Shown piece by piece: positions 2,013 through 62,881 of a DNA stretch of 64,000 bases. Position 1 is the stretch's first letter; every line of letters begins with the position of its first letter. The DNA lies in the IMG/VR virus record IMGVR_UViG_3300049846_002130, positions 119,529-183,528 of that record; one strand, 5' to 3'. The stretch is from a virus. Made by a program: the position numbers and the translations under genes. Below the pieces are notes generated by a model. That model was given only the letters and a program-made list of their open reading frames with translations. It made no database searches and was not told the DNA's origin.

Positions 2013-2584
2013 GCAATGTCTTCTACCAGAGTACTTCTCTTACTAGGATTTCTAAGAATATAGCTTGGATGATATGTAGTCAAGACCAATATATCTTGTA
2101 TAGTAAATCTTTGACTAGCAAAGGCTCCAAATCGATCTATTCTTGCTAGGCGACATAATGTATCAGCTGCCACACGGCCCAGTCCAAGTATGAACTTAGG
2201 TTTAACCAACTGTATTTGTTTTACAAGAAAAGGCTGACAAGCTAGTTGTTCTTCAAGCAAAGGGGTTCTGTTATAAGGTGGCCGATGTTTAACTACATTG
2301 GTAACAAATGTCTTATGTCTTTTGTTATCCCACCCAGCTTCAGTCAAGACTTGCTGAAGTAGCTGACCGGCGGGCCCGACAAGGGGCACGCCGAAGCCGT
2401 CATCATAAAGCTCTGGATTACTTTCTACCTCACCAGGAGCCTCAGCACAGATAAATAGCTCAGCAGAGCTATGGCCCTCTCCAGGCACCGGAAGCCATGG
2501 GCTAGAGTGATCGGTATTTAATATACAGCCTGTGCACTGCTTAATTTGGGTTCGAAGACTCTGTAGTGAGTAAGGCTCTGACAT
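1982..2584 (-). CDS. udg: uracil-DNA glycosylase family 4 (Fe-S type)
   Basis: CxxC, EAPG, GPAGQLL, TNVVKHRPP.NR.P, YHPSYILR motifs. Confidence 0.9.
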   Translation of the reverse strand: MSEPYSLQSLRTQIKQCTGCILNTDHSSPWLPVPGEGHSSAELFICAEAPGEVESNPELYDDGFGVPLVGPAGQLLQQVLTEAGWDNKRHKTFVTNVVKHRPPYNRTPLLEEQLACQPFLVKQIQLVKPKFILGLGRVAADTLCRLARIDRFGAFASQRFTIQDILVLTTYHPSYILRNPSKRSTLVEDIAWAISIVEEL

Positions 2585-3404
2585 GGTTAGGAACCTCTAA
2601 CGAATAACGATTAGCATATTTAAGTATGCGTTGAGAGACTATATCTAGATGACGAGATATTATCTTATGTCTTGGTAAGGAGAACATATCTAGTTGTTCT
2701 TGAGTTAAGGAAAGCTTACTATCAATAATATCTAAAATAGTTGCATCAGAGACTATTACTGTTTTTAGAATAGAGTCGTTAAATACAATAGCTACTTGAG
2801 CATGAGTAATATCAAAAGAAGCTAGATATCTAATTACATCTTTATAAAAACATTCAGCATCTAAATCTAGTACATATTGAGCCGAGAGGGGAATCTGATT
2901 GACAACTTTACTAAGTGAGTAAGTGGCCAACCTTTCTATTACATACCCTCGATGTTTAGTAAATCTTGTATAGGATCTTAATAGGTTGCTTAAGATTACA
3001 GCTGCAGGGTTACAATTAACTATTTGTATACCATTTATATATATATTAGGTAAGGTTGGTTGAAAGTTAAAATCTATAACCGGAACTTTTGTATACGAGG
3101 GAAATGGATTATTAACGACGGAATGCTCTTTTCGAAACTCTTCATAAGCTGGTGAGGCTCTATCTAAATAAATATCTAGATCCTGAGTATAAGTATAAGT
3201 AGGGCCTAGGCCTAAGCTTAATAAAAGATATGTTAATGCTGCGCCACCACAAATTGCCCACTGTCCAGATTGATATTTAGATTTCTGTAGGGTCTCAAAT
3301 ACATTAGAACCTAATATAGCTAATTCTGATTTAATGTTTTCAGGAACCGGATTACAAGAAAATGTTTGCACATATTTCTCAATGTCTCCTATTGAGTATT
3401 TCAT
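2541..3404 (-). CDS. Pol-beta-superfamily nucleotidyltransferase, CCA-adding/poly(A) polymerase-like
   Basis: GGA...DLD catalytic signature; LRSYTRF..HRGY resembles R..RF...G; FDIT motif. Confidence 0.6.
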   Translation of the reverse strand: MKYSIGDIEKYVQTFSCNPVPENIKSELAILGSNVFETLQKSKYQSGQWAICGGAALTYLLLSLGLGPTYTYTQDLDIYLDRASPAYEEFRKEHSVVNNPFPSYTKVPVIDFNFQPTLPNIYINGIQIVNCNPAAVILSNLLRSYTRFTKHRGYVIERLATYSLSKVVNQIPLSAQYVLDLDAECFYKDVIRYLASFDITHAQVAIVFNDSILKTVIVSDATILDIIDSKLSLTQEQLDMFSLPRHKIISRHLDIVSQRILKYANRYSLEVPNHVRALLTTESSNPN

Positions 3405-3598
3405 GAATCCATCTCCTTTCTTCTAGAGTCTAGATAGCCTTGTATGCCTAACCAGAGCATAGTAATCATCATCCAGCTATTAGCATCTATATAACGAGTA
3501 AAGAGTGCAATAGTAGCAATAGTCCAAGCTATAAATTTCCTACTATTTGCCTTATTAACAAAATTTTCTATGTGTTGGCAAAGTTTATCAAGTGTCAT
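3401..3598 (-). CDS. small two-TM membrane protein (holin-like)
   Basis: SRKFI followed by two short hydrophobic helices. Confidence 0.45.
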   Translation of the reverse strand: MTLDKLCQHIENFVNKANSRKFIAWTIATIALFTRYIDANSWMMITMLWLGIQGYLDSRRKEMDS

Positions 3599-3615
3599 AA
3601 ATAATATGAGAGCGC

Positions 3616-4086
3616 CTATTCAGCGCTCTCATCCTCCCATAAAGATGGAATCTGCTGTAAAGCTAGATCCCTAATTGTACGAATATATTCCTGTATAGCA
3701 AGAATATCTTTAACCACATAAATCTTTTCTAAGAAGTCTCGTCCAGATACAGTAGGTATTTGGGAAATCCTCATTGCCTTTTTAGTAATGAAGTCATCTT
3801 CATCTAAACTCAAGAAGTAATTAAATTCGTTGAGTGTATGATGGGCTTCATATGGACTAACTTCATGTAGCTTGTTATAGAGTTTAGCTACAAGGGTTGC
3901 CATCGGTCCGCAAGGTAAAAGTTTAGTAGTAAGAGTAAAACTACCAATAGCTATTCTTCTAAACAAATCAGCATAGGGTAATAGAATTGCAAATAAAGCA
4001 TCGTCAACATTCTGACTAGTAGCATTATCTAAATCTTTGTTCTCTAGGTTTGGATTATAGGCAATAGCCTCTGGTTTCAGTTTCAT
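3616..4086 (-). CDS. hypothetical protein
   Basis: ORF track; GGAGG RBS upstream. Confidence 0.6.
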   Translation of the reverse strand: MKLKPEAIAYNPNLENKDLDNATSQNVDDALFAILLPYADLFRRIAIGSFTLTTKLLPCGPMATLVAKLYNKLHEVSPYEAHHTLNEFNYFLSLDEDDFITKKAMRISQIPTVSGRDFLEKIYVVKDILAIQEYIRTIRDLALQQIPSLWEDESAE

Positions 4087-4129
4087 TATCAGCCTCCAAT
4101 AAGAATGAGTCTAACAAATTAGGTTAGCT

Positions 4130-4238
4130 TAGAAAAGACAAACTTTATAGTGCCTGCCACAGGATACTGTCTAACCCAGTATTGATAGAGTTGAACTATC
4201 CACTTATACGTACAAGGTATTAAATGTAATCTTTTCTA
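4130..4238 (-). ncRNA. Y RNA (YrlA-like) candidate
   Basis: terminal stem TAGAAAAGA/TCTTTTCTA, inner stem TATAAGTG/CACTATA, then in order a T-arm (GATAG TTCAACT CTATC), a loop-closed acceptor-like stem and a GG-containing D-like hairpin; Ro60 gene in the window. Confidence 0.6.
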
Positions 4239-4263
4239 CATTTAAACTCAAACTTATTATAGG

Positions 4264-4337
4264 TGGGTAAGGCATCGAGTTCAACGATGCTTTCTACTAG
4301 CTACAAGCTAATCTGGATTGTCTTCTTACACATACCC
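4264..4337 (-). tRNA. atypical tRNA-like RNA (nominal anticodon TGT)
   Basis: acceptor GGGTATG/CTTACCC, anticodon arm ATTAG CTTGTAG CTAGT, T-arm GCATCG TTGAACT CGATGC, no clear D-stem. Confidence 0.5.
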
Positions 4338-4344
4338 AAGTAAT

Positions 4345-4424
4345 TGGAGAGACTAGATTTGAACTAGTGAACCTTTTGGGAACGGTTTTACAGACCGCAT
4401 GCTTTAGCCTCTTGCATACTCTCC
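4345..4424 (-). tRNA. tRNA-Tyr(GTA)
   Basis: cloverleaf; loop CTGTAAA, long variable arm, T-loop TTCAAAT. Confidence 0.85.
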
Positions 4425-4430
4425 AAAAAA

Positions 4431-4566
4431 ACTAGTGTAGATAGATGCTCGGCTCAGCGAATAAACACCTTAAGTGATCAGACAAAAAGTTAATCATTCT
4501 TTTCAGCTTTGCTACAGGATGATCTTCCCAGCTGTAATTTCTTCTACCAACAGCTTTTTACACTAG
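4431..4566. ncRNA. structured RNA candidate of unknown class
   Basis: closing stem CTAGTGTA/TACACTAG with internal hairpins, between two tRNAs. Confidence 0.4.
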
Positions 4567-4587
4567 AGCCCGGTACCAGGCTTTTAA

Positions 4588-4661
4588 TGGCCAAGGTAGG
4601 AGTCGAACCTACGACGCATAGCTCTTCGGGCTATCGCTCATACCAACTGAGCTACTCGGCC
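4588..4661 (-). tRNA. tRNA-Phe(GAA), C at position 33
   Basis: GGCCGAG/CTTGGCC acceptor; loop CCGAAGA; canonical D and T arms. Confidence 0.85.
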
Positions 4662-9859: not shown

Positions 9860-11257
9860 CTAGCGTATCTTTATGTTTTTAATTGTATCTACTAGAGATG
9901 TGCTATCAGAGGCAAATCTAATAACAGCATTAATTAGCTGTGTATTAAGTCCCGACATGTTTAAGGTATTGTCATCTGAGACGGGGACACAAGGTTTAAA
10001 TTCTAGATCCCAGAATACAACTTTACCTTTAATTTTACCTTGCTCTCTTAAGTCAGCATATACTTCTTTAACAGAGGTACTAGTTTGATTTTCTACCCAG
10101 GTTTCATTGTCAGATAAAATAATTGTTAAATCTGTTTCTGGTTGAATAGCTTCCAAAGCAGCAGTTACTCGAGTGCTACCACCAACAGAGAATAAGGTTC
10201 TAATTGAAGTTGAGAATAGTTGCTCTTTAGTTATTGTCTCTTCAATCTCAGTATTAAAGGTAGTTATAGTTGTTTTATCTGTAGCCATATATCTAGCCAA
10301 CCACAAAGCTTTGTCAATGTATTGATGCCTATACATACTTGTAGAAACATCAATAAAGATTTGTATATTTAAATCTGATGATAAAGCAGGAGTGTACTTT
10401 ATTGACTCATTAAGAGCTTGCTCAAATACTGGGCTATAATTAATATTGCGCCAAGTAATTACTAAAGATTCAAGATCTTTACGAAGTGTAGTTGCATCGA
10501 CATCTAGTAATTTACTATCTGTTAGCTCTTTATTATGACTACTAAACTGATTATAGAATTTTCTAATTTGTGTCCAAGTGCTTCGTGTAATTAGATCATC
10601 CTTTTGCTTATCACTCATTTTGTTCCAATGATTGAGAAGCAAAATGCCCGGAGCATATCTTGGTAGTCTATCTGTTAACTCACCAGATAAGAACATTTTA
10701 TATTCATTTAGAAACAATGGATATTCTTTTGTTCTTTTAAATAACCATGAAAAATAATCAACGTGTGTCGAAGGCGGATTGGGATGTGTAAGAGAAATTA
10801 AGTCTTTTAATGTTGGAGTTCCATAATCTTGCGCAAATAAAACTTCTGGTTCTGTCTGTACTAAAAATTCTTTAATATAGTTTTTAGCTGCAGATCCAAG
10901 AGATCTAATACCAATTTCTCCACCTCTAACTAGTTGAACAAACTTTTTAATCATTCCAAGATTGTCTAGTATATATGGGACTGTTTCATTGAATAGCTCT
11001 GGCTCTTTTCTTACTAATAGTAAGATAAGAAGAACAATTGGTGTATCCTTCATCCCAGCTTGAGTTCTTGCATAGATAGCTGTCTGTGCAATATATTCTG
11101 AATCGCATCTATTTGCTGTATCTAATAGCTGCTGTAAATTAGCAGTAGAACGAGTCTTGGAAGTTAAAATAGCTGTTGTTGCAATTTTTGCTAATAATTC
11201 TTCTGGAGTCATTATATCCATAATTCCACCAGCAGAATTTCTTATATGTCCGTCCAT
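9860..11257 (-). CDS. Ro60/TROVE-domain RNA-binding protein with C-terminal vWA domain
   Basis: N-terminal NSAGG..TPEELLAKIATT, AIYAR..GMKDTP, LISLTHP; vWA DVSTSM...GGST...SDNETW. Confidence 0.85.
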   Translation of the reverse strand: MDGHIRNSAGGIMDIMTPEELLAKIATTAILTSKTRSTANLQQLLDTANRCDSEYIAQTAIYARTQAGMKDTPIVLLILLLVRKEPELFNETVPYILDNLGMIKKFVQLVRGGEIGIRSLGSAAKNYIKEFLVQTEPEVLFAQDYGTPTLKDLISLTHPNPPSTHVDYFSWLFKRTKEYPLFLNEYKMFLSGELTDRLPRYAPGILLLNHWNKMSDKQKDDLITRSTWTQIRKFYNQFSSHNKELTDSKLLDVDATTLRKDLESLVITWRNINYSPVFEQALNESIKYTPALSSDLNIQIFIDVSTSMYRHQYIDKALWLARYMATDKTTITTFNTEIEETITKEQLFSTSIRTLFSVGGSTRVTAALEAIQPETDLTIILSDNETWVENQTSTSVKEVYADLREQGKIKGKVVFWDLEFKPCVPVSDDNTLNMSGLNTQLINAVIRFASDSTSLVDTIKNIKIR

Positions 11258-11406
11258 TTGTCCTCCGCTTGCATTTGATTAATCAATTAAGTAATATCTT
11301 TTTGCTGACTAAATCAACCATGGGGTTGCATTATTAAAGAATGTGGGGTCAGGTCGAAATCATAACAAAGGCGTCATAAGACGCCTAAATTCGATTGGGA
11401 GTTTAA

Positions 11407-12863: not shown

Positions 12864-13918
12864 ATATACTTAAATTGAGCTGTTCCAGTAGTTTGATAAC
12901 TTAAAAATTCAGAATAGATACTATTAGTCACAACATCATAAATCCAATCGTTAACTATTATCGTCACATTATCTATTAGATAGTAAACCTCAATAGTATC
13001 TGCTACTGGGAAATAAGATAAGTAATAATTATCGTCTTCCAGATAGGTAAAGTTCTCAGCAATATCATCTAAGGTTGGGGTCCAGTCTGGAGAGTTGATA
13101 TCTATTATTTTACTACTTTGTCCATAGGCTTCAGATAGCTCAATATAGGCTTCTCCTATAAGATTCTCTGGATCTCCATATGGTGCACTAGTTGTAACAA
13201 TAGAATGAATATCTAAGCTCATTCTGGAGTCTCGCTCGTCGTCCATTAGGTTTCTAACAATGTTAGGTGGAACAGATGTATGATCATCTTCATCTGAAAT
13301 TATGATTAATTCTAATGGAACTAGTGGTCTATAATATTGTTGTGTGGCTGACAGTTCCATAGTTAAGGCAATACCCTGTTCGTTTCCTGAGCCTGTAGTC
13401 CCTACTAATAGTAGGTCCCTTAGTAGGATATCTGCTTCTTCAACCAGTGGTGTTAATATTGTATAACCCTGACTCATTTCTAGTTGATATTTAGGAGTAA
13501 AACTAAACACACCAACTCTAAAATCTATATCACTTCCTATTAAGGGATCTATTATAGACACACTATTAACAGAAATTAATTTTTGATTATCATTCATAGA
13601 ACAAGAGTCGTCTACTAAAAAGAATAAATCCATTTTTTTAGTTTTATTGACGACTATGTTCTCGACTATATATTCTGTAAAGTCTATCGTCTGAACACTA
13701 GTTGGCAGTACAGGCTCTGATACTCTAGAAATATTATTTTCAATACAGCCTACAGGCGAACTAGTTACTAAAAGAAACAGTAAGAATATTATGAAGTTCT
13801 TCTTCAGTAAACTCTGAAGGAGATAATTCGTTAATGTCTTCGACTCTGAAAGCTGCTGCATTTTTATGGCCTCCACCACCATATAGTTTAGCAAGTTCAG
13901 ATACGTCGAGGCCACCAT
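12848..13918 (-). CDS. vWA-domain exported/lipoprotein
   Basis: hydrophobic segment then Cys; LVDDSCSM MIDAS; ISDEDD; true start probably internal. Confidence 0.7.
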   Translation of the reverse strand: MVASTYLNLLNYMVVEAIKMQQLSESKTLTNYLLQSLLKKNFIIFLLFLLVTSSPVGCIENNISRVSEPVLPTSVQTIDFTEYIVENIVVNKTKKMDLFFLVDDSCSMNDNQKLISVNSVSIIDPLIGSDIDFRVGVFSFTPKYQLEMSQGYTILTPLVEEADILLRDLLLVGTTGSGNEQGIALTMELSATQQYYRPLVPLELIIISDEDDHTSVPPNIVRNLMDDERDSRMSLDIHSIVTTSAPYGDPENLIGEAYIELSEAYGQSSKIIDINSPDWTPTLDDIAENFTYLEDDNYYLSYFPVADTIEVYYLIDNVTIIVNDWIYDVVTNSIYSEFLSYQTTGTAQFKYIKRGP

Positions 13919-14840
13919 CTTTTGATGAACGTAAAGATATATTCCACCCTTTCCCAGTACAGTAATAAATAGCAGCTGTCTTAAGCTTATTAGCTTCTGC
14001 TAAATTACTACCTAATTCCGACTGATAAAAATTACAGTTAATAGCAGGTATAACATAGTTGCTTATTAATAGTTTATGTACCTTGTTAGGAGATCCAAGT
14101 ATACCTATTACTTTGTTGTGGTAGCGAAGATAAGATTTACCTTCAGCTACACATTCATCATAATGATCAGTAAGCCTTGCTGATATTTTATCCCACTCAG
14201 GAAAGGTACGCCTATACATCTCTATAACTAATAAGAGTTCTTTTGCATTTGGAACTTTCCATTTCCAAATATCTCGATCTTCAATAAGATCAATAAGTAA
14301 CGGGCGACCTACACCAAGCTCATCTTTACAAAACCAGTCCCAAACAATACCTGCTCCGGATCTGTTCATATCAAAATATGTATATGGCAGATCTCCACAT
14401 TCCTTTTGTGCAGAGATATGATGATCGAGTACAAGTACTTCATCAAAATGATCGGCACATGTAATCAACATATCTCTGTGTGGACAAATATCTGCAAAGA
14501 GAATCTTTTGAGCACCAGATTCTTTTAGAAGTTTTTTGGTTGCTTCAAATTTGTGATCTTCTCTGATAAAACGAATTTTAGTATCTAGTAAACTACATTC
14601 TAAATATTCTAAATCACCATCTGCATCTAACATGCTAGCTATATTTTTAGCACCAAGCTTCTTTATATAGTGATAGTAACCCCATGCTGCTCCAAATCCA
14701 TCAGGACACGGGGCGTGGAATACAATAACGTCATAAAAAAGTAAATCAAGCTTTGCAATAGCTATAGCTAATTTTTGAGCTTTAGGTAATAAATTACTAG
14801 GTATAAAATTTTTACTTTCTATCATGTGGATCAATTCCAA
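13761..14840 (-). CDS. DHH/DHHA1 phosphoesterase
   Basis: H.PC.DG, FADI, LDHH, SLRS, GGGGH..AAAF. Confidence 0.9.
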   Translation of the reverse strand: MELIHMIESKNFIPSNLLPKAQKLAIAIAKLDLLFYDVIVFHAPCPDGFGAAWGYYHYIKKLGAKNIASMLDADGDLEYLECSLLDTKIRFIREDHKFEATKKLLKESGAQKILFADICPHRDMLITCADHFDEVLVLDHHISAQKECGDLPYTYFDMNRSGAGIVWDWFCKDELGVGRPLLIDLIEDRDIWKWKVPNAKELLLVIEMYRRTFPEWDKISARLTDHYDECVAEGKSYLRYHNKVIGILGSPNKVHKLLISNYVIPAINCNFYQSELGSNLAEANKLKTAAIYYCTGKGWNISLRSSKDGGLDVSELAKLYGGGGHKNAAAFRVEDINELSPSEFTEEELHNILTVSFSN

Positions 14841-37581: not shown

Positions 37582-37665
37582 CGGAGCCGGCAGGATTCGA
37601 ACCTACGATAGTGTTACTATGGTTGTTTAGCAAACAACTGGTTTAAGCCACTCACCCACAGCTCC
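37582..37665 (-). tRNA. tRNA-Ser(GCT)
   Basis: cloverleaf with loop TTGCTAA and long variable arm, G73. Confidence 0.9.
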
Positions 37666-37672
37666 AATGAGA

Positions 37673-42374: not shown

Positions 42375-43048
42375 CCTTCGCCTGCTTTTAAGAATAACTT
42401 AATTGGATCAGTATAGTCTGTAGCTAATCTATTCTTTTCTGGTGCGTGTAATATTCTATATACATCCATTACAGTAATGATTAGATTTGCATCGGACAAT
42501 CTTGCAAATTGAGCTGGACCAGCTAGAACTCTTTTACTACCTTTAACTAAGTGAGCTACGGTAATTAAGATAAAATTAGGATTTTCTCGAAGCTTATGTA
42601 ACTCTCGAGCCAGATCTCTAGATTCTTTTATGTTATCGCCAGCCCACTCATTCAGAGTATCTATAGCAGCTACATATATCTTCTTACTGTCAGCACATTC
42701 TTTAACCATTCTTTTAATTCTTGGTAGTACAGCTTCTTTAACACCACCTAAAATATTATGAATATTAGTGCTTCCAACTAGTTTCTGATACTTAATGATT
42801 TTATTTTTGCCTGTCTCAAAGTCAAATAAATCAACTATACAATCAGTATTCTGTGCATAACCACTAAGAATATCTAGTAAAATTAAAGTCTTACCAGAAC
42901 CAGGAACTCCAGATATATTAATCCAGCTACCACCAGGAGTACCAAAATCTTTACCATTTTGCTCTCCAATAATTTTGTCCCAAAACTCTCTATGTGAAGA
43001 AAGTACTGGTGGATGTTTAGCATTCTTTCTTATATCTAGTTCGTTCAT
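42299..43048 (-). CDS. RecA-fold ATPase, RadA/Sms-core-like
   Basis: GVPGSGKT, IDT, AHLVKG, KNR motif. Confidence 0.65.
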   Translation of the reverse strand: MNELDIRKNAKHPPVLSSHREFWDKIIGEQNGKDFGTPGGSWINISGVPGSGKTLILLDILSGYAQNTDCIVDLFDFETGKNKIIKYQKLVGSTNIHNILGGVKEAVLPRIKRMVKECADSKKIYVAAIDTLNEWAGDNIKESRDLARELHKLRENPNFILITVAHLVKGSKRVLAGPAQFARLSDANLIITVMDVYRILHAPEKNRLATDYTDPIKLFLKAGEGWQESQEPDFITKNPIIQLMRKWLT

Positions 43049-43459: not shown

Positions 43460-43748
43460 CGTCTATCTCTTCTAGTAGATAATCTAGAATTTTTATGAAT
43501 TCTTTTTGAGTTGGCTCAGGATTAACATCTTTAATTCGTAGTCTATATTGTGGTTGAAACCTAATAATATACTCTCTAAAATTACCAAGACTAATTGAAA
43601 TTTTAATAGGATTTAAATTTATCTTTTGAGTTTTTTCATATAGGAGAGTTGTTTTAGGACCAATAAGCTCTTCTAAAGCTTGTGCCTCAGCTTCCTCTTC
43701 TTTTTTTCTCAAGATAAATGGATTTAGTAATTTAAGTATTCTAATCAT
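43452..43748 (-). CDS. hypothetical protein
   Basis: ORF track. Confidence 0.55.
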   Translation of the reverse strand: MIRILKLLNPFILRKKEEEAEAQALEELIGPKTTLLYEKTQKINLNPIKISISLGNFREYIIRFQPQYRLRIKDVNPEPTQKEFIKILDYLLEEIDDD

Positions 43749-44404
43749 AGATCTACTACAATAGGCTTGTTAAGCTTACGATAGTTTTCATCTAATGATG
43801 CTGCATTAACAGCAATAGTCTTATTATTAGAATACTTATATTGACCATAGCCTTCATGGATATGACCAAAGGCATGAAGATCTATACTTAAGCCTTCTAC
43901 TCTAGATCTTAAAGGTTTACTACCAACATTGTAATCTACTTCACCATCAAACAAATGGTTTACTTGATCGCCAAGACCATAAGGTGGAACATGGGTAAGT
44001 AATATGTTGGTATCATCTGGTATGTGGTCCCAAACGGAATCTTGTTCATTATAGAATGCCCAACCCTTTAGGTCCTTCTGTAGAGGTGAGCCATAGAACT
44101 TAAGAGAATCAATTATAATTGATTCTCTATACAAATAATGACAGTTTTCTGGCAAAGTCTTAAGAAGCTCTCTAAATCGTGGCTTCTGCCTTTCGCAGAA
44201 GAAGTCATGATTACCGGCAATAAATACGATATGTCTAGCTGGTATTGGCTCTTCATGACCGTTGCCTAGCCAATTAAGAAAACCCAAAACTTCACGCTCT
44301 GTTCCGTTCATTGTAAAATCACCAGTATGAATTAAGAAATCACATTCTGGGATATGTAATTTATGTGCTTGGTTATGAGTATCAGAAATAAAAGTTAAAC
44401 GCAT
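43745..44404 (-). CDS. calcineurin-like metallophosphoesterase (paralog of 41682..42374)
   Basis: SDTH, HTGD, AGNHD, THVPP, FGHIHE. Confidence 0.9.
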   Translation of the reverse strand: MRLTFISDTHNQAHKLHIPECDFLIHTGDFTMNGTEREVLGFLNWLGNGHEEPIPARHIVFIAGNHDFFCERQKPRFRELLKTLPENCHYLYRESIIIDSLKFYGSPLQKDLKGWAFYNEQDSVWDHIPDDTNILLTHVPPYGLGDQVNHLFDGEVDYNVGSKPLRSRVEGLSIDLHAFGHIHEGYGQYKYSNNKTIAVNAASLDENYRKLNKPIVVDL

Positions 44405-46691: not shown

Positions 46692-47906
46692 CTAGATGGT
46701 CTTCGTTCTTTCCATTCCTGACCCAGCAGCAGCAAGCGCTCTCTCCCGCTGGCGAGATGTTGAAGGGACAGAGGGCTCTTCGAACTCCTCTTCCTCTTCA
46801 GAAGTCTCTGTCAACTCAAGACTAGCTGCAGCTTGACGATACTCGTCAAGGAATGGTCCAACAAAGTCCAAAATACCATCAGTGAGTAGCGCTGCACCAT
46901 CACCAGCCCAATCGTCGAGTGCAACAGTAGCTACCTTCTCAACGGCAGCCTTATATGGAATTTTATTACTAACATCAAACTGGATAGCAATCAAAGCCAA
47001 AGCTGGTAAAAGTCCTTCGAGAGCCTTCTGTCCAGGGACAGTATGGAAGAATTGTGGAAGGGAGTTACCAAACTTAGCAGTAACCTCTCGAACAAATCGA
47101 CGGTTGATTGAACCAACTACACCACGCTGCGCGCCCTTAAGACCAATATCCTTGATCTTGGCAAACGCATTACCTGCTGGACTTGCCATTTTTACTCCTG
47201 CTGACTTTTTTACTTTAAGTTCTTTGTATAAAGCTTCGATAGTCGAAGAGTCTAGATGTCTATTATGGATTAGCTCTTGATGCAATCTAGAATGATCTGG
47301 ATGTGTAGTATCAAGAGAATCAATAAGCTCTAGCCATCGCTCGAAGGAAATATTGGGGGCATAATTGGAATGAATAAATTTAAGAGTGGCTAAATTAAAA
47401 GCATCTTTGGTTAAACCTACTTCGCTTGTAATTGTACCAACCTTAATTAAATTCCAATCATTCTTATGGGCTTGCTCTGCTATAGAAAGATTTTTTGCTG
47501 TAACAGCAATTCCATTTCTATTAACTTTTGTCTGCATTACCTTACCAATATTTTGACCGCTCGGTAGTTTATATTGGTTTTTAGGTAAAGCATAAATACC
47601 TGAATTGAGTGTTTTAAAAGAGTTTATAATATCTACTTTTGCAGCCACTCTATCTATTTTTTCACTATCACTTCTACTAAGAAATGTTTTTAGGTCTTTA
47701 TGTATCATATAACTCTCTTTTAAAGAAGAGAGTACTGGAGTGATTTCGTGAATAGTAAGATTATTGTCTTTATCAAAAGATACTCTTACATCTAAGTTTA
47801 GTTCACTAAACAAATCTGTGTCCCAATCATCAAAAACAGAATCAATGTCAAACCAGGCTTCATCTGGAAGATCACTGAAATTATTTGATGCTAGGAACTC
47901 TTTCAC
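46692..47906 (-). CDS. hypothetical protein with acidic C-terminal tail
   Basis: 404-aa ORF. Confidence 0.65.
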   Translation of the reverse strand: MKEFLASNNFSDLPDEAWFDIDSVFDDWDTDLFSELNLDVRVSFDKDNNLTIHEITPVLSSLKESYMIHKDLKTFLSRSDSEKIDRVAAKVDIINSFKTLNSGIYALPKNQYKLPSGQNIGKVMQTKVNRNGIAVTAKNLSIAEQAHKNDWNLIKVGTITSEVGLTKDAFNLATLKFIHSNYAPNISFERWLELIDSLDTTHPDHSRLHQELIHNRHLDSSTIEALYKELKVKKSAGVKMASPAGNAFAKIKDIGLKGAQRGVVGSINRRFVREVTAKFGNSLPQFFHTVPGQKALEGLLPALALIAIQFDVSNKIPYKAAVEKVATVALDDWAGDGAALLTDGILDFVGPFLDEYRQAAASLELTETSEEEEEFEEPSVPSTSRQRERALAAAGSGMERTKTI

Positions 47907-48268
47907 GTACCCACTCCATTTTATCGTTTAGGTACTCAATCTTCTTAATGTTACACTGTTGTATGTAACCCATGCAATATTTGCATGGTCTAGAAGGTTT
48001 AGGTTTACCAGCTGGGCTCCATCTATAAATTCTAAGGATATCCCCTGGTCTAGAAGCTAGTAGGGCATGGGTTTCTGCATGCAATTTACACACTTCAATA
48101 GGATTTTGTGTCTCGTCATCTACAACACTATACCTAAATTTGGTATGTGTTTTTGCATTATTGACTGTAATCTTAATTACAGTCTTACCTCTAATTAATA
48201 TGGCTGCAACATGCCATAAACTTGGAGATTGTAAAGCTAGATGACGAGCCCGCTCATAGAGGGCTCAT
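47881..48268 (-). pseudogene. cytidine/dCMP deaminase-family protein with a +1 frameshift after the start
   Basis: HAE and PCKYC zinc motifs; the open frame extends almost to the RBS-preceded ATG at 48268, which is one base out of frame. Confidence 0.7.
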
Positions 48269-51885: not shown

Positions 51886-52452
51886 TTAAGGCTCCCATAA
51901 CATTAGTTTATCAAGCTCTGTCCAAAGAGCAGCAAGAATTGGTCTATTAGTAGCTCTATATAGAGCTTTTCTAAATGCACCATATTCTTTCTTATACATA
52001 CCATATAAGCTTTTGTTTCTTTTATTAGAGCTAATATCTTCAAGAACACTAATACAGCTTCTAACGTTTGCTATACGATCACAAAGCTTAACGTAAATAG
52101 CATCTTCGGTCTGATTGATCTTCTTGTAGGTATAAACAAACTTCTCTTTACGAGTAGTTAATTCGTTGTTTTGGTCATCATATTCTTCATTTGTAACAGC
52201 TTCAACTAAGCTTGTTACTCCATGTCCAAAGAGTTCTTCTAGTTTAGCAGGAGCGACATTAGTATCTTCTAGTATGTCGTGAAGTACGATAGCTTGTAAT
52301 ATAAACCAATCGTTAATTCCAAACTCAATGGCTACAGAGAGTACTGCAATTAAATGTACCTTATATGGATGTCGACCATATCTACAACCAGCTTTATCGT
52401 GCTCTTCAATAGCAAACTCTAAAGCTCGTTGGACTTCAGAGTAGGTGTCCAT
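51886..52452 (-). CDS. HD-domain (p)ppGpp hydrolase-like (SpoT-HD/Mesh1-like)
   Basis: PY.VHL..V, LHDILEDT, V.AVT, VKLCDRIAN. Confidence 0.85.
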   Translation of the reverse strand: MDTYSEVQRALEFAIEEHDKAGCRYGRHPYKVHLIAVLSVAIEFGINDWFILQAIVLHDILEDTNVAPAKLEELFGHGVTSLVEAVTNEEYDDQNNELTTRKEKFVYTYKKINQTEDAIYVKLCDRIANVRSCISVLEDISSNKRNKSLYGMYKKEYGAFRKALYRATNRPILAALWTELDKLMLWEP

Positions 52453-53096
52453 TAAACTTCTACCTCTCTTTTCCGACTAGTATTCCAATCGTCTAGAATC
52501 TTGCCTCTAACTACTGTATAAATACCCCTATTAGTTTCTAATACAGCAGGAAGCAATGTGTTTCTAACTCGGTTACGATATCCACTGGTTGGATCTCTAT
52601 TGGTAGGATCTTCAAGCCAAGGAATATTATGCTGCTTAGCGTACTCATAAAGATTATGCTTACGAGTTAAAATAAATGGTCGGTAGCAATTAAAAGGGGT
52701 GCTCCATGGCATAAGAGCTGAACGTCCCTGAAGGCAACTCATTAGCCATGTTTCTACCTGATCATCAAGATGATGAGCAAGATAGACTGGTACGCCAAAG
52801 CTTGCAAACCATTCCCGACGATGCTTGCTCCACCAGTGCTCAAGGCTTGTAGACGCATCTAGCTGTTCTGGCATATCATAGATGTCTAAGTGTAGGTCCC
52901 GTGCCTTACAATAGGCACGAACAAACTCCATATAGTCATTTGCTCTCTCAGTATGGTGGTTGACATGCAATACACTTACATCTCTCTCCCGCACTTGAGT
53001 TAAGAAGTGAAGTAGCGACATGCTATCAACACCACCACTAACAGCTACTTTAAGTCTCGAATGCATCTTCCATTTAGGAAGTAGTTCGATAAGCAT
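52452..53096 (-). CDS. tilS: tRNA(Ile)-lysidine synthase, catalytic domain only
   Basis: AVSGGVDSMSLL, HVNH, AHHLDDQVET, RPF, EDPTN, RNRVR. Confidence 0.9.
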   Translation of the reverse strand: MLIELLPKWKMHSRLKVAVSGGVDSMSLLHFLTQVRERDVSVLHVNHHTERANDYMEFVRAYCKARDLHLDIYDMPEQLDASTSLEHWWSKHRREWFASFGVPVYLAHHLDDQVETWLMSCLQGRSALMPWSTPFNCYRPFILTRKHNLYEYAKQHNIPWLEDPTNRDPTSGYRNRVRNTLLPAVLETNRGIYTVVRGKILDDWNTSRKREVEV

Positions 53097-55704: not shown

Positions 55705-55778
55705 TGGAGCCCGAAACTAGAATCCAACTAGTGTCTATTACTTACAAGGTAATTGCTTTAGCACTAAGCTATACGGGC
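55705..55778 (-). tRNA. tRNA-Thr(TGT) with encoded CCA and C19/G56 swap
   Basis: GCCCGTA/TTCGGGC, loop CTTGTAA, D-loop AGTGCTA, T-loop TTGGATT. Confidence 0.85.
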
Positions 55779-58591: not shown

Positions 58592-58597
58592 ATTAAG

Positions 58598-58669
58598 TAC
58601 TTCCGAGGGTAGTCGAAACCCTGTTGCATGGATGAAAACCATGAGTCCTGACCGCTAGACGACGGAAGC
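58598..58669 (-). tRNA. tRNA-Glu(TTC)
   Basis: loop TTTTCAT, D-arm GTC..GAC, T-arm AGGGT TTCGACT ACCCT. Confidence 0.85.
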
Positions 58670-60762: not shown

Positions 60763-60836
60763 TGAGAACGACAGGACTCGAACCTGTATAATCCACTTAC
60801 GGTACTTTGATTAGAAGGCAAAGCCGATACGTTCCC
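60763..60836 (-). tRNA. D-armless tRNA-Arg(TCT)-like RNA
   Basis: GGGAACG/CGTTCTC, loop CTTCTAA, T-arm ACAGG TTCGAGT CCTGT; only TATCGG in place of the D-arm. Confidence 0.6.
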
Positions 60837-61463: not shown

Positions 61464-61474
61464 GCTACGCGCCC
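61456..61474 (-). pseudogene. isolated tRNA 5' fragment (GGGCGCG TA GCCTAAGGCA)
   Basis: acceptor strand complementary to the fragment at 60686. Confidence 0.55.
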
Positions 61475-61603
61475 TAAAAAGATGGTGTATCTTTATCTTC
61501 TGGATTTATTGGTTTCTTAGGTTGTTCTAGGCTCCACTTCAAAAGTATATAAACCATACAACCTAATAATAAGATAGCTCCTGTAAAAAAATCCATATAG
61601 TAC

Positions 61604-61963
61604 CTAATTAAAAGTAGATTCAACTGCCGTCATTAGTTCTTTAACATTATCAGAACTACCAATAACCTGAAGTTTATTGTTCTTCCAGATCTTAGCTGTC
61701 CAGATAGACTCATTTTTCCATACTAGTCCCATTAGCTCATGACTACCTGCCATGCCATAGGACCAATAGTATTCTGCATGTCTAGTCCAACTAGGAATTG
61801 GTTTGGTAACTGTAACCGGCTTAATAGCTACAAGTGCTTTATTAGCACAAGAAACTGCTGTTACTACCACTACAATATTTGAAATGGTGAACAGAATCAC
61901 GTACAAAAGTACAAATAAATTTAAGTAAGTAAAGGTATTAATAAATGAACTTAAATTACTCAT
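61604..61963 (-). CDS. membrane-anchored hypothetical protein
   Basis: N-terminal TM. Confidence 0.55.
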   Translation of the reverse strand: MSNLSSFINTFTYLNLFVLLYVILFTISNIVVVVTAVSCANKALVAIKPVTVTKPIPSWTRHAEYYWSYGMAGSHELMGLVWKNESIWTAKIWKNNKLQVIGSSDNVKELMTAVESTFN

Positions 61964-61977
61964 TTGTACTCCAAAAG

Positions 61978-62051
61978 TTGAAGCGGCACGACTCGAACGT
62001 GCAATTAGACAGCTTCAAAGGCTGTTACCATACCAATTAGGTGACGCTTCA
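61978..62051 (-). tRNA. tRNA-Gln(TTG)
   Basis: TGAAGCG/CGCTTCA, loop CTTTGAA. Confidence 0.85.
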
Positions 62052-62159
62052 ATAACTAAATTAAGGGCTCGACCTATATTTCAAAGTCGAGCCCATGGAT
62101 CTTATCGCTGTTAAATCCATTTAGAGGTGATTTAAGCGACCTCGTGGTGAGATGATTGG

Positions 62160-62236
62160 TGGTGGGCCCTCGGTGATTTGAACACCGGCCTTCATGCTTA
62201 TGAGGCACGCACTCTAACCAACTGAGTTAAGGGCCC
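62160..62236 (-). tRNA. tRNA-CAT, probably Ile2 (lysidine) type, CCA encoded
   Basis: GGGCCCT TA ACTC..., loop CTCATAA, A73; resembles bacterial tRNA-Ile2 rather than initiator. Confidence 0.85.
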
Positions 62237-62308
62237 ATTAAAATTACATTTTACAAACTTGTTCTAAGTACTATAGCTTTAGTATACTCCTTAAAGGAGC
62301 AGCTATGA

Positions 62309-62557
62309 ATGATCCTGGCGGGCCAAGTACTAGCACTATTCATTACTGGAGCAGTCGAGTATGCCTTGGCTGCCGCATGGACGGAGTCTGTGAGTCGTAA
62401 ACATGCTACTGCATGTGCAGGAATTAGCTTTGTAAACGTTATGATTTGGGGAACTGTTGTTACCTACGTATCTACAGGTGGTTGGCCAGCACTTGTAGCA
62501 CATGCATTAGGTTGTGCAGCTGGTGCTTGGCTTACTGTTAAATATAACAGTAAATAA
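62309..62557 (+). CDS. small three-TM membrane protein
   Basis: hydrophobic helices; GGAG RBS. Confidence 0.6.
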   Translation: MILAGQVLALFITGAVEYALAAAWTESVSRKHATACAGISFVNVMIWGTVVTYVSTGGWPALVAHALGCAAGAWLTVKYNSK

Positions 62558-62558
62558 A

Positions 62559-62881
62559 TGGGCCGTATAGGATTCGAACCTATGACCTCGGGCTTAACGT
62601 CACTGCACTTAGTTTCCTAAGCTACCTTAAAGGCTTGCAGTGCTGGACTATATCATCACCTTCACCTTAAGTGGTCAGGTGCTGTACGTGTAGTCTCTGA
62701 GGACTCTCTGCTAATGCAGGTTGCCTGCTGATTGTCCAATCCATTAAATTTTTACGTTTAGGCACGTATTAATGGCTCTAAGGAGTTTCCAGCATATAGT
62801 ACAGTTCATTTACTATATTTCTATAGTAACGCTCTTATTACACGTTTAAGGCCCTCGCTCTACCAACTGAGCTAACAGCCC
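62559..62881 (-). tRNA. tRNA-Lys(TTT) interrupted by a group I intron
   Basis: exon 1 62881-62848 and exon 2 62597-62559 join into a cloverleaf with loop CTT|TTAA. Confidence 0.85.
62598..62847 (-). mobile_element. group I self-splicing intron (250 nt, no ORF)
   Basis: P TGCTGGAAACTCC, Q AATCAGCAG, R TCAGAGACTAC, S GATATAGTCC, terminal G. Confidence 0.9.

What the first reader, a model, noticed from the sequence alone, without database searches (positions are those of the whole stretch)
2541..62881. Candidate phage tRNA repair and re-tooling system centred on Ro60
Seen in one window: Ro60/TROVE (9860-11257), a Y RNA candidate, an RNA ligase (38490-39788), a CCA-like NTase, MnmA, TilS, a deaminase, two metallophosphoesterases, a DHH phosphoesterase, about 12 tRNAs and at least 5 tRNA-like or split RNAs. 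Established: bacterial Ro60/Y RNA loci are linked to RNA repair ligases, and hosts use anticodon nucleases against phages. Inference: the phage heals, ligates, CCA-completes and modifies its own tRNAs and may deploy tRNA mimics. I cannot verify from sequence alone that this combination is undescribed.
Basis: partly seen in the sequence, partly recalled or inferred. Interest (0 to 1): 0.8.

Follow-up and report, generated by a model that had tools for sequence, protein, structure and literature searches.

The report
Phage tRNA support genes, not one system
The last third of this 183-kb phage genome holds real genes for a Ro60 RNA-binding ring, an RNA ligase, two tRNA wobble-base enzymes and 11 tRNAs, but they are scattered helpers of a kind already described in large phages, not one repair machine built around Ro60.

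Summary
Most listed parts are real. Ro60 (9860-11257) is very divergent in sequence, but a family profile and its predicted fold both place it in Ro60. The ligase (38490-39788) is of the Naegleria/Deinococcus nick-sealing type (Rnl5). MnmA, a one-domain TilS, two paralogous metallophosphoesterases, a DHH enzyme and 11 tRNAs, one split by a group I intron, are confirmed.

Three parts do not hold as named. The "CCA-like NTase" is an orphan resembling the anti-Gabija protein Gad2. The "deaminase" is nearest dCMP deaminases and has no in-frame start. The Y RNA candidate lacks the YrlA motif and has no counterpart in the closest relative.

The genome has no recognisable polynucleotide kinase, CCA-adding enzyme, RlaP or Tpt1, so a T4-like heal-and-seal pathway cannot be assembled.

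The genes are spread over 60 kb. Across 50 Ro60-bearing phage records, RNA ligases occur in about half and MnmA in one.

The re-tooling part is supported. MnmA's three substrate tRNAs (Lys, Glu, Gln) are all phage-encoded. The CAU tRNA has tRNA-Ile2 signatures that fit TilS, and AUA is a common codon.

Phage Ro60 genes usually lie within tRNA arrays (15/20 windows against 1/20 controls).

The concept was published for jumbo phages in 2021. Earlier notes of this scan on this same genome flagged the Y RNA, intron and split-tRNA parts.

The parts
9860..11257 (-). Divergent Ro60 (HEAT-repeat ring plus vWA domain with MIDAS residues D303/S305/S307/T362/D383)
   Evidence: profile links to TROVE/vWA_Ro60 proteins and to solved Ro60 structures; AF2 pLDDT 88.8; top 13 PDB matches are all Ro60.
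11298..11357 (-). Conserved structured element in the Ro60 leader: stem CUGACC/GGUCAG enclosing a small hairpin. Candidate Ro60-linked RNA or regulatory site.
   Evidence: 78% mean column identity across three phages whose Ro60 proteins are 58-64% identical. By eye the inner hairpin in L083 pairs as UAAUC/GAUUA, but RNAalifold, as aligned, scored 3 of its 5 pairs as broken there; the 13-mer is unique in the genome.
   Evidence: T-arm GATAG-TTCAACT-CTATC; MFE -25.1 kcal/mol; z -1.66; no Rfam match, no GNCGAA motif, not conserved in L082.
4343..4661 (-). tRNA-Tyr(GUA) and tRNA-Phe(GAA)
24170..25225 (-). MnmA, tRNA 2-thiouridine(34) synthase
   Evidence: NF001138, 362 bits against a cut-off of 284; phrog_1741.
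34645..35429 (-). tRNA-Ser(UGA), a degenerate Ser copy, an HNH endonuclease gene, a partial Asn-like tRNA and tRNA-Asn(GUU)
37581..37666 (-). tRNA-Ser(GCU)
38490..39788 (-). Rnl5-type (NgrRnl/DraRnl-like) ATP-dependent RNA ligase: N-terminal OB-like domain plus nucleotidyltransferase domain
   Evidence: invariant K184-x-H-G, E273, E390-G, K407-x-K409. NgrRnl at E 1e-17, Rnl2/REL1 only at 1e-7.
41682..42374 (-). Metallophosphoesterase 1, MPPED2-like
42299..43048 (-). RecA/KaiC/RadA-like (AAA_25) ATPase, not a polynucleotide kinase
43745..44404 (-). Metallophosphoesterase 2, MPPED2-like, a paralogue of the first (31% identity)
52452..53096 (-). One-domain TilS (PP-loop lysidine synthetase N-domain; C-terminal tRNA-binding domains absent)
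   Evidence: TIGR02432, 117.7 bits against a cut-off of 93.6.
55705..55778 (-). tRNA-Thr(UGU)
58597..58669 (-). tRNA-Glu(UUC), an MnmA substrate type
60763..60836 (-). D-armless tRNA-like RNA with anticodon UCU, next to an antisense HNH gene (60846-61463 +) and between tRNA end fragments at 61474 and 60686
61977..62051 (-). tRNA-Gln(UUG), an MnmA substrate type
62160..62236 (-). tRNA with anticodon CAU that has tRNA-Ile2 signatures (G3-C70, C4-G69, C5-G68): the likely TilS substrate
   Evidence: sequence; criteria of PMC1635315.
62559..62881 (-). tRNA-Lys(UUU) interrupted after U34 by a 250-nt group I intron; an MnmA substrate type
13761..14840 (-). DHH/DHHA1 phosphoesterase, kept next to Ro60 in two related phages; role unassigned
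2541..3404 (-).
47881..48264 (-). CDA-fold deaminase reading frame without an in-frame start codon
51013..54218 (-). NADAR (51013-51441), SpoT-like HD hydrolase (51886-52452) and NUDIX (53820-54218), flanking TilS

Best explanation
The span is the accessory arm of a 183.5-kb tailed phage. It holds three loosely co-located gene sets, mostly on one strand, not a single Ro60-centred machine.

(A) Translation re-tooling. There are 11 tRNAs here and 12 in the genome. Several (Leu-UAA, Thr-UGU, Lys-UUU, Glu-UUC, Gln-UUG, Ile2-CAU) read A-ending codons that this 40%-GC phage uses often. Two wobble-base enzymes have all their substrates supplied by the phage. MnmA would thiolate U34 of the phage tRNA-Lys(UUU), tRNA-Glu(UUC) and tRNA-Gln(UUG). 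The one-domain TilS would turn C34 of the CAU tRNA into lysidine, so that it reads the frequent AUA codon. The tRNA-Lys must first lose its group I intron, presumably by self-splicing.

(B) RNA surveillance and repair. A divergent but structurally canonical Ro60 ring probably binds misfolded or 3'-extended phage tRNA precursors, or a partner RNA, and hands them to host exonucleases. An Rnl5-type ligase can reseal 3'-OH/5'-phosphate nicks held in duplex, for example broken tRNAs whose stems keep the halves together. It can only act on ends that need no 5' kinase.

(C) Enzymes that more likely counter host nucleotide or NAD signalling: two MPPED2-like phosphodiesterases, DHH, NADAR, NUDIX, a SpoT-like HD hydrolase and a Gad2-like NTase.

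Shown here: the identity of the parts, the enzyme-substrate matching, the codon usage, and the dispersal of the genes. Inferred: every activity and every substrate.
For: - Part identities.
- Enzyme-substrate matching: tRNA-Lys(UUU), Glu(UUC) and Gln(UUG) are all encoded alongside an equivalog-level MnmA.
- The CAU tRNA has G3-C70, C4-G69 and C5-G68. PMC1635315 gives G3/C70 as excluding Met and fMet, and C4-G69/C5-G68 as typical of tRNA-Ile(CAU) and required by E. coli TilS.
- AUA makes up 20.4 of every 1000 codons and 32% of Ile codons, more than AUG.
- Related phages keep MnmA, S8, PP2C, DHH and Ro60 together.
- Phage Ro60 genes lie in tRNA arrays. 457 of 881 tRNAs fall within 10 kb of Ro60, against 101 expected. 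15/20 Ro60 windows hold tRNAs, against 1/20 antipodal control windows.
- Ligase relatives also sit among tRNAs (5/5), and 4/5 have a Metallophos gene within 7 kb.
- Both phosphoesterases are nearest to MPPED2.
- The NTase-like protein resembles Gad2.
- Published framework for set C and for phage RNA repair: PMC7824862.
Against: - No activity was tested.
- TilS lacks the C-terminal domains that E. coli TilS uses to read the acceptor stem, so the match to the acceptor signatures may not be how this enzyme picks its tRNA.
- Ro60 here is 5.2 kb from the nearest tRNA, with nucleotide-metabolism genes between them.
- The Ro60-tRNA adjacency rests on related genomes: only 7 single-linkage Ro60 clusters, 4 of them with tRNAs nearby.
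- Rnl5 enzymes are known as duplex-nick sealers. Action on tRNA is not established for them.
- The recurring ligase-Metallophos proximity could mean the phosphoesterases do heal RNA ends, which would move them from set C to set B.
- Absence of a kinase rests on HMM searches and one embedding search, so a very divergent kinase could be missed.
Confidence: 0.6

Rival explanations
1. This is one integrated counter-defence pathway against host anticodon nucleases: the phosphoesterases heal broken tRNA ends, the ligase seals them, an NTase restores CCA, MnmA, TilS and the deaminase re-modify, and Ro60 with a Y RNA organises the process.
For: - A ligase with intact catalytic motifs is present.
- A Metallophos gene lies within 7 kb of the ligase in 4 of 5 related phages and in the window.
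- One relative has Tpt1, one has RlaP and one has a weak AAA_33 kinase near the ligase.
- Phage Ro60 genes sit in tRNA arrays.
- In Salmonella, rsr, the Y RNAs and rtcBA form one operon (PMC7790460, listed; the operon organisation is from my own knowledge, as the paper was not opened here).
Against: - No polynucleotide kinase, CCA-adding enzyme, RlaP or Tpt1 in this genome.
- The P-loop protein is RecA/KaiC-like.
- The NTase-like protein looks like Gad2.
- The deaminase is nearest dCMP deaminases and has no in-frame start.
- The ligase is the duplex-nick type, not the anticodon-loop type Rnl1.
- Ro60 is 27 kb from the ligase. 13 of 25 near-complete Ro60 phages have no recognised RNA ligase.
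- None of the 80 Ro60 neighbourhoods holds a homologue of this ligase.
Confidence: 0.15
2. The tRNAs and wobble enzymes serve codon-usage compensation only. Ro60, the ligase and all the hydrolases are unrelated accessory or anti-defence genes that merely share the phage's non-essential arm.
For: - Heavy use of AUA, AGA, TTA and other A-ending codons.
- The genes are spread over 60 kb and interleaved with nucleotide metabolism, proteases and a tail-fibre module.
- There is almost no recurrence of the window's other genes around Ro60 in other phages.
- Anti-defence genes (Acb5, Tad2-like) lie in the same regions of relatives.
Against: The strong placement of phage Ro60 genes inside tRNA arrays, co-oriented with the tRNAs, argues that at least Ro60 is functionally tied to tRNAs. 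Ligase relatives are also always near tRNAs.
Confidence: 0.2
3. Ro60 works as in Thermus phage phiLo. With a phage-encoded Y-like RNA it captures host PNPase or another exonuclease to redirect host RNA decay, for example against CRISPR RNA maturation. This would be independent of tRNA repair.
For: - The fold matches phiLo Ro60 (9KOP/9L5Y).
- phiLo's Yrl RNAs lie just upstream of its Ro60 gene (PMC12135203).
- This phage and two relatives have a conserved structured element in exactly that place.
Against: The leader element is only about 60 nt, has just three sequences behind it, and has only a partial CGA match to the motif. It could be a promoter, operator or leader. No host is known, so no PNPase partner can be examined.
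Confidence: 0.2

Closest known systems
RNA-repair and tRNA-provisioning repertoire of jumbo phages (Iyer, Anantharaman, Krishnan, Burroughs & Aravind 2021, PMC7824862, section 3.4.9)
   Same: The same parts list in principle: many phage tRNAs, ATP-dependent RNA ligases, phosphoesterases including calcineurin-like and HD types, NTases, and in a small subset a TROVE/Ro60 protein. NADAR, NUDIX and DHH enzymes are discussed as counter-signal systems.
   Different: This genome is below 200 kb and lacks the kinase, RlaP, CCA-adding and Tpt1 components. The paper does not mention TilS or MnmA. Here both wobble enzymes are matched by phage-encoded substrate tRNAs.
Phage T4 Pnkp plus Rnl1 repair of PrrC-cleaved tRNA-Lys
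   Same: A phage RNA ligase together with a phage interest in tRNA-Lys(UUU).
   Different: No Pnkp (neither the kinase nor the HAD phosphatase). The ligase is Rnl5-like, not Rnl1: PF09511 does not describe it, and T4 Rnl1 ranks far below NgrRnl.
Salmonella rsr-yrlBA-rtcBA RNA repair operon (PMC7790460) and bacterial YrlA Y RNAs (PMC4201824)
   Same: A Ro60 orthologue in a genome that also encodes an RNA ligase and tRNA-like RNAs.
   Different: Not an operon: Ro60 and the ligase are 27 kb apart. The ligase is ATP-dependent Rnl5, not RtcB. The candidate Y RNA lacks the GNCGAAN0-1G motif and lies outside the 4-kb criterion.
Thermus phage phiLo Ro60 with Yrl1/Yrl2 (PMC12135203; PDB 9KOP, 9L5Y)
   Same: A phage Ro60 with the canonical ring fold (TMq 0.62-0.64). 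A conserved structured element lies just upstream of the gene, where phiLo has its Yrl RNAs.
   Different: 16-17% identity over the structural alignment. RNA binding and PNPase capture are untested here.
Naegleria gruberi NgrRnl and Deinococcus DraRnl (Rnl5 family; PDB 5COT, TIGR02306)
   Same: The domain order (N-terminal OB-like domain, C-terminal nucleotidyltransferase), the catalytic motifs, and the best structural match (E 1e-17, TMt about 0.7).
   Different: About 90 residues longer, with insertions. Only 16-17% identity. TIGR02306 matches the N-terminal part only, far below its cut-off.
Phage-encoded TilS of Pseudomonas jumbo phages MIJ3 and PA5oct (PMC6892783)
   Same: A lysidine synthetase gene in a tRNA-bearing phage.
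   Different: Here only the 214-aa catalytic N-domain is present, and a candidate tRNA-Ile2(CAU) substrate and high AUA usage are identified.

Membership tests
Ro60 / TROVE (Rsr) proteins | Full-length homology to TROVE plus Ro60-type vWA proteins | tested here: met
   Direct Pfam TROVE search is negative. A profile of the protein plus two homologues gives full-length hits at E 1e-48 and below. Of the 60 aligned sequences, 55 carry vWA_Ro60 and 33 carry TROVE. The profile hits PDB Ro60 at E 1e-36 to 1e-43.
Ro60 / TROVE (Rsr) proteins | Ring of alpha-helical repeats closed by a vWA domain with MIDAS residues | tested here: met
   AF2 pLDDT 88.8. The top 13 Foldseek matches are Ro60 of frog, human, Deinococcus and phage phiLo, TMq 0.62-0.75. 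D303, S305, S307, T362 and D383 are invariant in 60 sequences.
Ro60 / TROVE (Rsr) proteins | Binds a Y RNA and misfolded RNAs | not testable with these tools
   Needs cross-linking or gel-shift experiments.
YrlA-type bacterial/phage Y RNA (PMC4201824) | GNCGAAN0-1G motif in the Ro60-binding region | tested here: not met
   Absent from 4130-4238. The only matches in the scanned span 3500-15300 lie inside coding sequence at 6967, 10767 and 13838.
YrlA-type bacterial/phage Y RNA (PMC4201824) | Encoded within 4 kb of the Ro60 gene | tested here: not met
   The candidate's 5' end at 4238 is 5.6 kb beyond the Ro60 stop at 9860.
YrlA-type bacterial/phage Y RNA (PMC4201824) | tRNA-like domain (T-arm, acceptor-like stem-loop, D-like stem-loop) closed by a long 5'/3' stem | tested here: met
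   The MFE of the 109-nt segment gives a 10-bp closing stem, a canonical T-arm and two further hairpins. It is one of only two perfect T-arms outside tRNA genes. The z-score is only -1.66.
YrlA-type bacterial/phage Y RNA (PMC4201824) | Conservation or covariation in relatives | tested here: inconclusive
   No similar sequence at the syntenic place of L082 or L083. L082 has a different stem-enclosed tRNA-like element about 6 kb downstream of its Ro60. Rfam gave no Y RNA match in seven other phage Ro60 loci, so its silence here means little.
Rnl5 (NgrRnl/DraRnl) RNA ligases | N-terminal OB-like domain followed by the nucleotidyltransferase domain | tested here: met
   TIGR02306 matches residues 7-191 and PF09414 matches 179-407. 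Whole-chain structural match to NgrRnl at E 1e-17, with Rnl2/REL1 at 1e-7.
Rnl5 (NgrRnl/DraRnl) RNA ligases | Covalent nucleotidyltransferase motifs I, III, IV and V | tested here: met
   K184-x-H186-G187, E273, E390-G391 and K407-x-K409 are invariant in 48 homologues.
Rnl5 (NgrRnl/DraRnl) RNA ligases | Seals 3'-OH/5'-phosphate nicks in duplexes with an RNA 3'-OH strand | not testable with these tools
   Needs a biochemical assay.
T4-type tRNA heal-and-seal pathway | 5'-OH polynucleotide kinase | tested here: not met
   No AAA_33 match in the genome. The P-loop protein 42299-43048 is AAA_25/KaiC/RadA-like.
T4-type tRNA heal-and-seal pathway | 2',3'-cyclic phosphodiesterase or 3'-phosphatase | tested here: inconclusive
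   Two MPPED2-like metallophosphoesterases recur near the ligase in relatives. Their substrate is unknown.
T4-type tRNA heal-and-seal pathway | RNA ligase specialised for anticodon-loop breaks (Rnl1 or RtcB) | tested here: not met
   The only ligase found is Rnl5-like. This genome was not searched with the Rnl1 or RtcB models themselves.
CCA-adding enzyme (class II NTase) | PolyA_pol head domain (PF01743) | tested here: not met
   No match in the genome. Protein 2541-3404 resembles Gad2 clusters (score 0.96) and PolyA_pol heads only at TM about 0.5, on a model with pLDDT 0.55.
MnmA | Full-length match above the curated equivalog cut-off, with three domains | tested here: met
   NF001138 at 362 bits against 284; PF03054, PF20259 and PF20258 all present.
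TilS | PP-loop N-terminal catalytic domain | tested here: met
   TIGR02432 at 117.7 bits against 93.6.
TilS | C-terminal tRNA-binding domains | tested here: not met
   The protein is 214 aa. The full-length model NF007942 matches only residues 6-185, at 61 bits against a cut-off of 606.
tRNA adenosine deaminase (TadA) or other tRNA deaminase | CDA-fold zinc motif plus family-level match | tested here: inconclusive
   The HAE...PCxxC motif is present. PF00383 scores 20.6 bits, below its cut-off of 25. The best PHROG is dCMP deaminase. There is no NCBIfam hit and no in-frame start.

The most novel reading that the evidence does not exclude
Phage Ro60 may be a dedicated quality-control or processing factor for phage tRNA arrays. 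Its gene sits inside, and co-oriented with, tRNA arrays in most Ro60-bearing phage records examined. In this lineage it may work with a conserved structured leader RNA (11298-11357) or with the tRNA-like element at 4130-4238, as a highly divergent Y RNA that current models cannot see.
Probability: 0.25. Interest if true: 0.6.

Novelty: new member of a known kind. Interest (0 to 1): 0.38.

Why it matters
The general idea is already in the literature: large phages carry tRNAs, RNA ligases, end-processing enzymes and sometimes Ro60 to keep translation running under host attack. This window does not change that picture.

It does give three clean test cases.
- A phage that brings wobble-modifying enzymes (MnmA and a minimal TilS) together with every tRNA they act on, and that uses AUA heavily.
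- An Rnl5-type ligase in a phage with no recognisable kinase, which raises the question of which RNA breaks it seals.
- A very divergent Ro60 with a conserved leader element.

The survey made along the way found that phage Ro60 genes usually sit inside tRNA arrays. I did not find this stated in the papers held here. If it survives a lineage-corrected test, it points to what phage Ro60 is for.

Tried and rejected
- Direct Pfam and whole-genome TROVE searches on Ro60 were negative. Only a profile and a fold comparison showed what it is.
- Megablast of the Ro60 region against GenBank phages found nothing.
- Rfam gave no Y RNA, either over the window at E<=1 or over 4080-4520 at E<=10. It gave none in seven other phage Ro60 loci either, so Rfam cannot settle the Y RNA question.
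- I scanned viral and metagenome contigs for the conserved leader pattern. The 50 matches were chance hits inside high-GC coding sequence, such as response-regulator genes, so no new relatives were found.
- An RNR-based search for relatives returned only phages that share the RNR, so no control set matched for gene content was obtained. Antipodal windows of the same genomes served as the control instead.
- The idea that the P-loop protein between the two phosphoesterases is a polynucleotide kinase was rejected: it is RecA/KaiC-like.
- The idea that 39796-41019, next to the ligase, is an NTase was rejected. It has an N-terminal membrane-type segment and no family hit.
- Paralogy among the small membrane-anchored proteins around the ligase was not detected.
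- PF26128 (Gad2) is not in the local Pfam copy, so Gad2 membership could not be tested by HMM.
- The contigs that carry the ligase relatives are not held as searchable records, so I could not ask whether they also encode Ro60.

Full report
WHAT THE WINDOW IS
The window is the last 64 kb of a 183,528-bp IMG/VR virus record with direct terminal repeats. G+C is 40%. Nearly all genes run on the minus strand, except a plus-strand tail-fibre block at 19.3-32.6 kb. No close relative exists among deposited phage genomes.

CHECKING THE PARTS: Ro60
- The gene at 9860-11257(-) gave no Pfam hit, and TROVE was not found anywhere in the genome. PHROGs matched only the C-terminal third to an "RNA-binding protein" family. 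The only weak PDB sequence hits were the TROVE protein of Thermus phage phiLo.
- A profile of the protein and its two close homologues (58-64% identity) then found 827 proteins. The best were full-length at E 1e-48 and below.
- Of the 60 aligned sequences (the query, its 2 close homologues and 57 of the top hits), 55 carry PF25045 (Ro60 vWA) and 33 carry PF05731 (TROVE).
- The family profile hits human, frog, Deinococcus and phiLo Ro60 structures at E 1e-36 to 1e-43.
- An AlphaFold2 model has pLDDT 88.8, and its 13 best PDB matches are all Ro60, TMq 0.62-0.75. The MIDAS residues are invariant.
- This is a real Ro60 that is very divergent in sequence.

CHECKING THE PARTS: THE LIGASE
- The ligase (38490-39788) carries PF09414 in its C-terminal half. 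Its N-terminal half resembles the Deinococcus DRB0094 family.
- Motifs I, III, IV and V are invariant in 48 homologues.
- The model (pLDDT 90.9) matches the Naegleria nick-sealing ligase NgrRnl over the whole chain at E 1e-17. Rnl2/REL1 reach only 1e-7, and T4 Rnl1 ranks lower still.
- It is therefore an Rnl5-type enzyme. From my own knowledge of the NgrRnl and DraRnl work, these enzymes seal 3'-OH/5'-phosphate nicks in duplexes whose 3'-OH strand is RNA. They are not the anticodon-loop specialists.

CHECKING THE PARTS: THE OTHER ENZYMES
- MnmA (24170-25225) passes the NCBIfam equivalog cut-off with all three domains.
- The TilS-like protein (52452-53096) passes the cut-off for the TilS N-terminal domain. 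It is only 214 aa and lacks the C-terminal domains.
- The two metallophosphoesterases are paralogues (31% identity). Both are nearest to MPPED2 among solved structures.
- The DHH/DHHA1 enzyme is confirmed.

PARTS THAT DO NOT HOLD AS NAMED
- No class II CCA-adding enzyme domain exists in the genome.
- The only NTase-like candidate, 2541-3404 (a GG...DLD motif), has no HMM hit and no detectable sequence homologue. In the ESM Atlas, 28 of its 30 nearest clusters are Gad2 (Gabija anti-defence 2) families at a score of 0.96. PolyA_pol heads appear only as structural neighbours at TM about 0.5, on a weak model. Gad2 is an NTase-fold anti-Gabija protein (bioRxiv 10.1101/2023.05.01.538930). This assignment is a lead, not a test.
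- The deaminase frame (47881-48264) has the zinc motif, but PF00383 scores below its gathering cut-off and its best PHROG is dCMP deaminase. The only ribosome-binding site plus ATG is one base out of frame and stops after four codons.
- The P-loop protein between the two phosphoesterases is AAA_25/KaiC/RadA-like, not a kinase.
- The genome has no AAA_33-type polynucleotide kinase, RlaP or Tpt1.

tRNAs AND tRNA-LIKE RNAs
- ARAGORN finds 10 tRNAs. With introns allowed it also finds tRNA-Lys(UUU), split after U34 by a 250-nt group I intron that Rfam scores at 67.9 bits. The genome has 12 tRNAs in all.
- A scan for a perfect T-arm gave ten hits, all on the minus strand. Only two lie outside tRNA genes: one in the Y RNA candidate (4184-4200) and one in a D-armless tRNA-like RNA with anticodon UCU (60763-60836).
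- The latter sits beside an antisense HNH gene, whose likely start is 60846, and between two fragments of a tRNA acceptor stem.
- A second HNH gene of the same PHROG family lies between degenerate Asn-like and Ser-like copies at 34.6-35.4 kb.
- I read these as traces of homing-endonuclease traffic in the tRNA region. I did not test that. This matches earlier notes of this scan on the same window.

THE Y RNA QUESTION
- The 109-nt candidate folds into a 10-bp closing stem with a T-arm and two further hairpins, in the YrlA order.
- The z-score is only -1.66. It lacks the GNCGAAN0-1G motif of YrlA RNAs (PMC4201824). It lies 5.6 kb from Ro60, outside that paper's 4-kb criterion.
- The closest relative has nothing similar at the matching place. 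That relative does have a different stem-enclosed tRNA-like element about 6 kb downstream of its Ro60.
- The 150-nt spacer just upstream of Ro60 is more conserved than the flanking proteins. Mean column identity is 78% across three phages whose Ro60 proteins are 58-64% identical.
- The spacer contains a CUGACC/GGUCAG stem enclosing a small hairpin. By eye the hairpin in L083 pairs as UAAUC/GAUUA, which would be compensatory, but RNAalifold, as aligned, scored three of its five pairs as broken there. Its 13-nt core is unique in the genome.
- This is where phiLo has its Yrl RNAs. With three sequences it remains a candidate only.

DO THE GENES FORM A SYSTEM?
Within the window they are spread over 60 kb. 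They are interleaved with ribonucleotide reductase, dUTPase, UDG, a subtilase, PP2C, a ClpB-like ATPase and tail-fibre genes. Ro60 is 27 kb from the ligase.

In close relatives:
- Two related contigs keep the order (MnmA)-subtilase-PP2C-DHH-[opposite-strand gene]-Ro60-dUTPase-RNR. MnmA, DHH and Ro60 therefore travel together in this lineage.
- Five phages with a 39-47% identical ligase all have tRNAs within 10 kb of it. Four have a Metallophos gene within 7 kb. Singly they also carry Tpt1, RlaP, a weak AAA_33 kinase, MnmA, HD_4, Acb5 and a Tad2-like gene.

In phages at large:
- One peptide pattern recovered 111 Ro60 genes in IMG/VR, and the best 80 were kept.
- In 50 records of 60 kb or more, PF09414 ligases occur in 23, RtcB in 4, Rnl1 in 8 and MnmA in 1. 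Among the 25 near-complete records, 12 have any of the three ligases.
- tblastn with the window's proteins found the ligase, MnmA, DHH and the NTase-like protein in none of the 80 Ro60 neighbourhoods. It found the others in one to three.
- So no Ro60-centred gene cassette is conserved.

THE ONE STRONG Ro60 NEIGHBOUR IS tRNA
- 52 of 80 Ro60 loci have tRNAs within 10 kb, almost always on the same strand.
- In the 50 records, 457 of 881 tRNAs lie in the Ro60 window, against 101 expected.
- In 20 near-complete genomes, 15 Ro60 windows contain tRNAs (238 in all). That compares with 1 of 20 antipodal control windows and 7 of 20 ligase-centred windows. Fisher p is 1e-5 for Ro60 against the control.
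- Caveat: these genomes form only 7 single-linkage Ro60 clusters, 4 of them with tRNAs nearby. The number of independent events is small.
- I did not find this adjacency stated in the papers held here.

WHAT IS SUPPORTED IN THE "RE-TOOLING" IDEA
- MnmA's substrates are the U34 tRNAs for Lys, Glu and Gln (abstract of PMC7025502). The phage encodes exactly these three.
- The tRNA that ARAGORN calls Met(CAU) has G3-C70, C4-G69 and C5-G68. Silva et al. give G3/C70 as excluding Met and fMet tRNAs, and C4-G69/C5-G68 as frequent in tRNA-Ile(CAU) and required by E. coli TilS (PMC1635315).
- AUA is 20.4 per 1000 codons in 156 long reading frames, more than AUG. AGA, TTA and ACA are also common.
- So four of the twelve tRNAs need a wobble modification that the phage itself can supply.
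- TilS in phages has been reported (MIJ3/PA5oct, PMC6892783). MnmA-like proteins form phrog_1741, labelled there as QueC-like.

COMPARISON WITH WHAT IS KNOWN
Section 3.4.9 of Iyer et al. 2021 (PMC7824862) already describes jumbo-phage tRNAs supplemented by RtcB and ATP-dependent RNA ligases, kinases and phosphoesterases, and RlaP and CCA-adding NTases. It adds that a small subset has a TROVE protein. The same paper treats DHH, calcineurin-like, NADAR and NUDIX enzymes as likely counters to nucleotide and NAD-derived signals. Chen et al. 2014 found YrlA-like RNAs next to phage Ro60 genes.

VERDICT
- The healing and CCA steps, and the central role of Ro60, are not supported.
- The combination is a new member of a known kind.

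Noticed in passing
window 11298-11357 (-), with L082:7187-7318 and L083:7388-7520: The spacer upstream of Ro60 is more conserved than the flanking genes. It folds into a CUGACC/GGUCAG stem around a small hairpin. The 13-mer TCGACCTGACCCC is unique in the genome. It could be a Y-like RNA, a Ro60 autoregulatory site or a promoter/operator.
   Followed up: partly
window 48264-48270 (-): The deaminase frame has no ATG/GTG/TTG before its catalytic motif. A good ribosome-binding site plus ATG lies one base out of frame and stops after four codons. This could be a +1 shift, an indel in the assembly or a decaying gene.
   Followed up: partly
window 62160-62236 (-): The tRNA called Met(CAU) has the acceptor-stem signatures of tRNA-Ile2 (G3-C70, C4-G69, C5-G68) and an encoded CCA end. 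AUA is used more often than AUG in this genome.
   Followed up: yes
window 11407-12813 (+): A 468-aa gene on the opposite strand between Ro60 and DHH is conserved in both relatives (about 45% identity). It has no family hit and is rich in Gly, Thr, Val, Ala and Ser.
   Followed up: no
window 12848-13918 (-): A 356-aa gene with a weak vWA match and DDSCSM-type MIDAS-like residues lies between DHH and the opposite-strand gene. It is absent from both relatives. A second small vWA-like gene (4958-5581) is conserved in them.
   Followed up: no
L082:14670-14900: A tRNA-like sequence (D, anticodon CCA and T arms) is enclosed by an ACGAAAGAU/AUCUUUCGU stem. The complement of its 5' acceptor strand appears only about 95 nt after the T-arm.
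   Followed up: partly
window 19305-23961 (+) compared with L083:1-2228: In relative L083, MnmA lies directly upstream of the subtilase. In the window a plus-strand tail-fibre block separates them, so the fibre genes look like an insertion or inversion.
   Followed up: no
L083:9588-12395 and L082:9789-11831: The ribonucleotide reductase differs among close relatives. L083 has the same class with an intein. L082 has an RNR_Alpha/RNR-II-type enzyme in the same place.
   Followed up: no
window 60846-61463 (+) and 34832-35209 (-): Two HNH endonuclease genes of the same PHROG family sit inside the tRNA regions, each next to broken or odd tRNA copies. The first probably starts at ATG 60846, after an AGGAG site, not at 60807.
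   Followed up: partly
window 59115-59738 (-): A 207-aa protein beginning GIIGSAGRG...SGGAAFSDH looks like a Rossmann-type (SLOG/DprA-like) nucleotide-binding protein but has no family hit.
   Followed up: no
window 51886-52452 (-): A stand-alone SpoT/RelA-type HD domain, a possible alarmone hydrolase, lies directly upstream of TilS. An HD_4 gene also lies near MnmA in the ligase relative L143.
   Followed up: no
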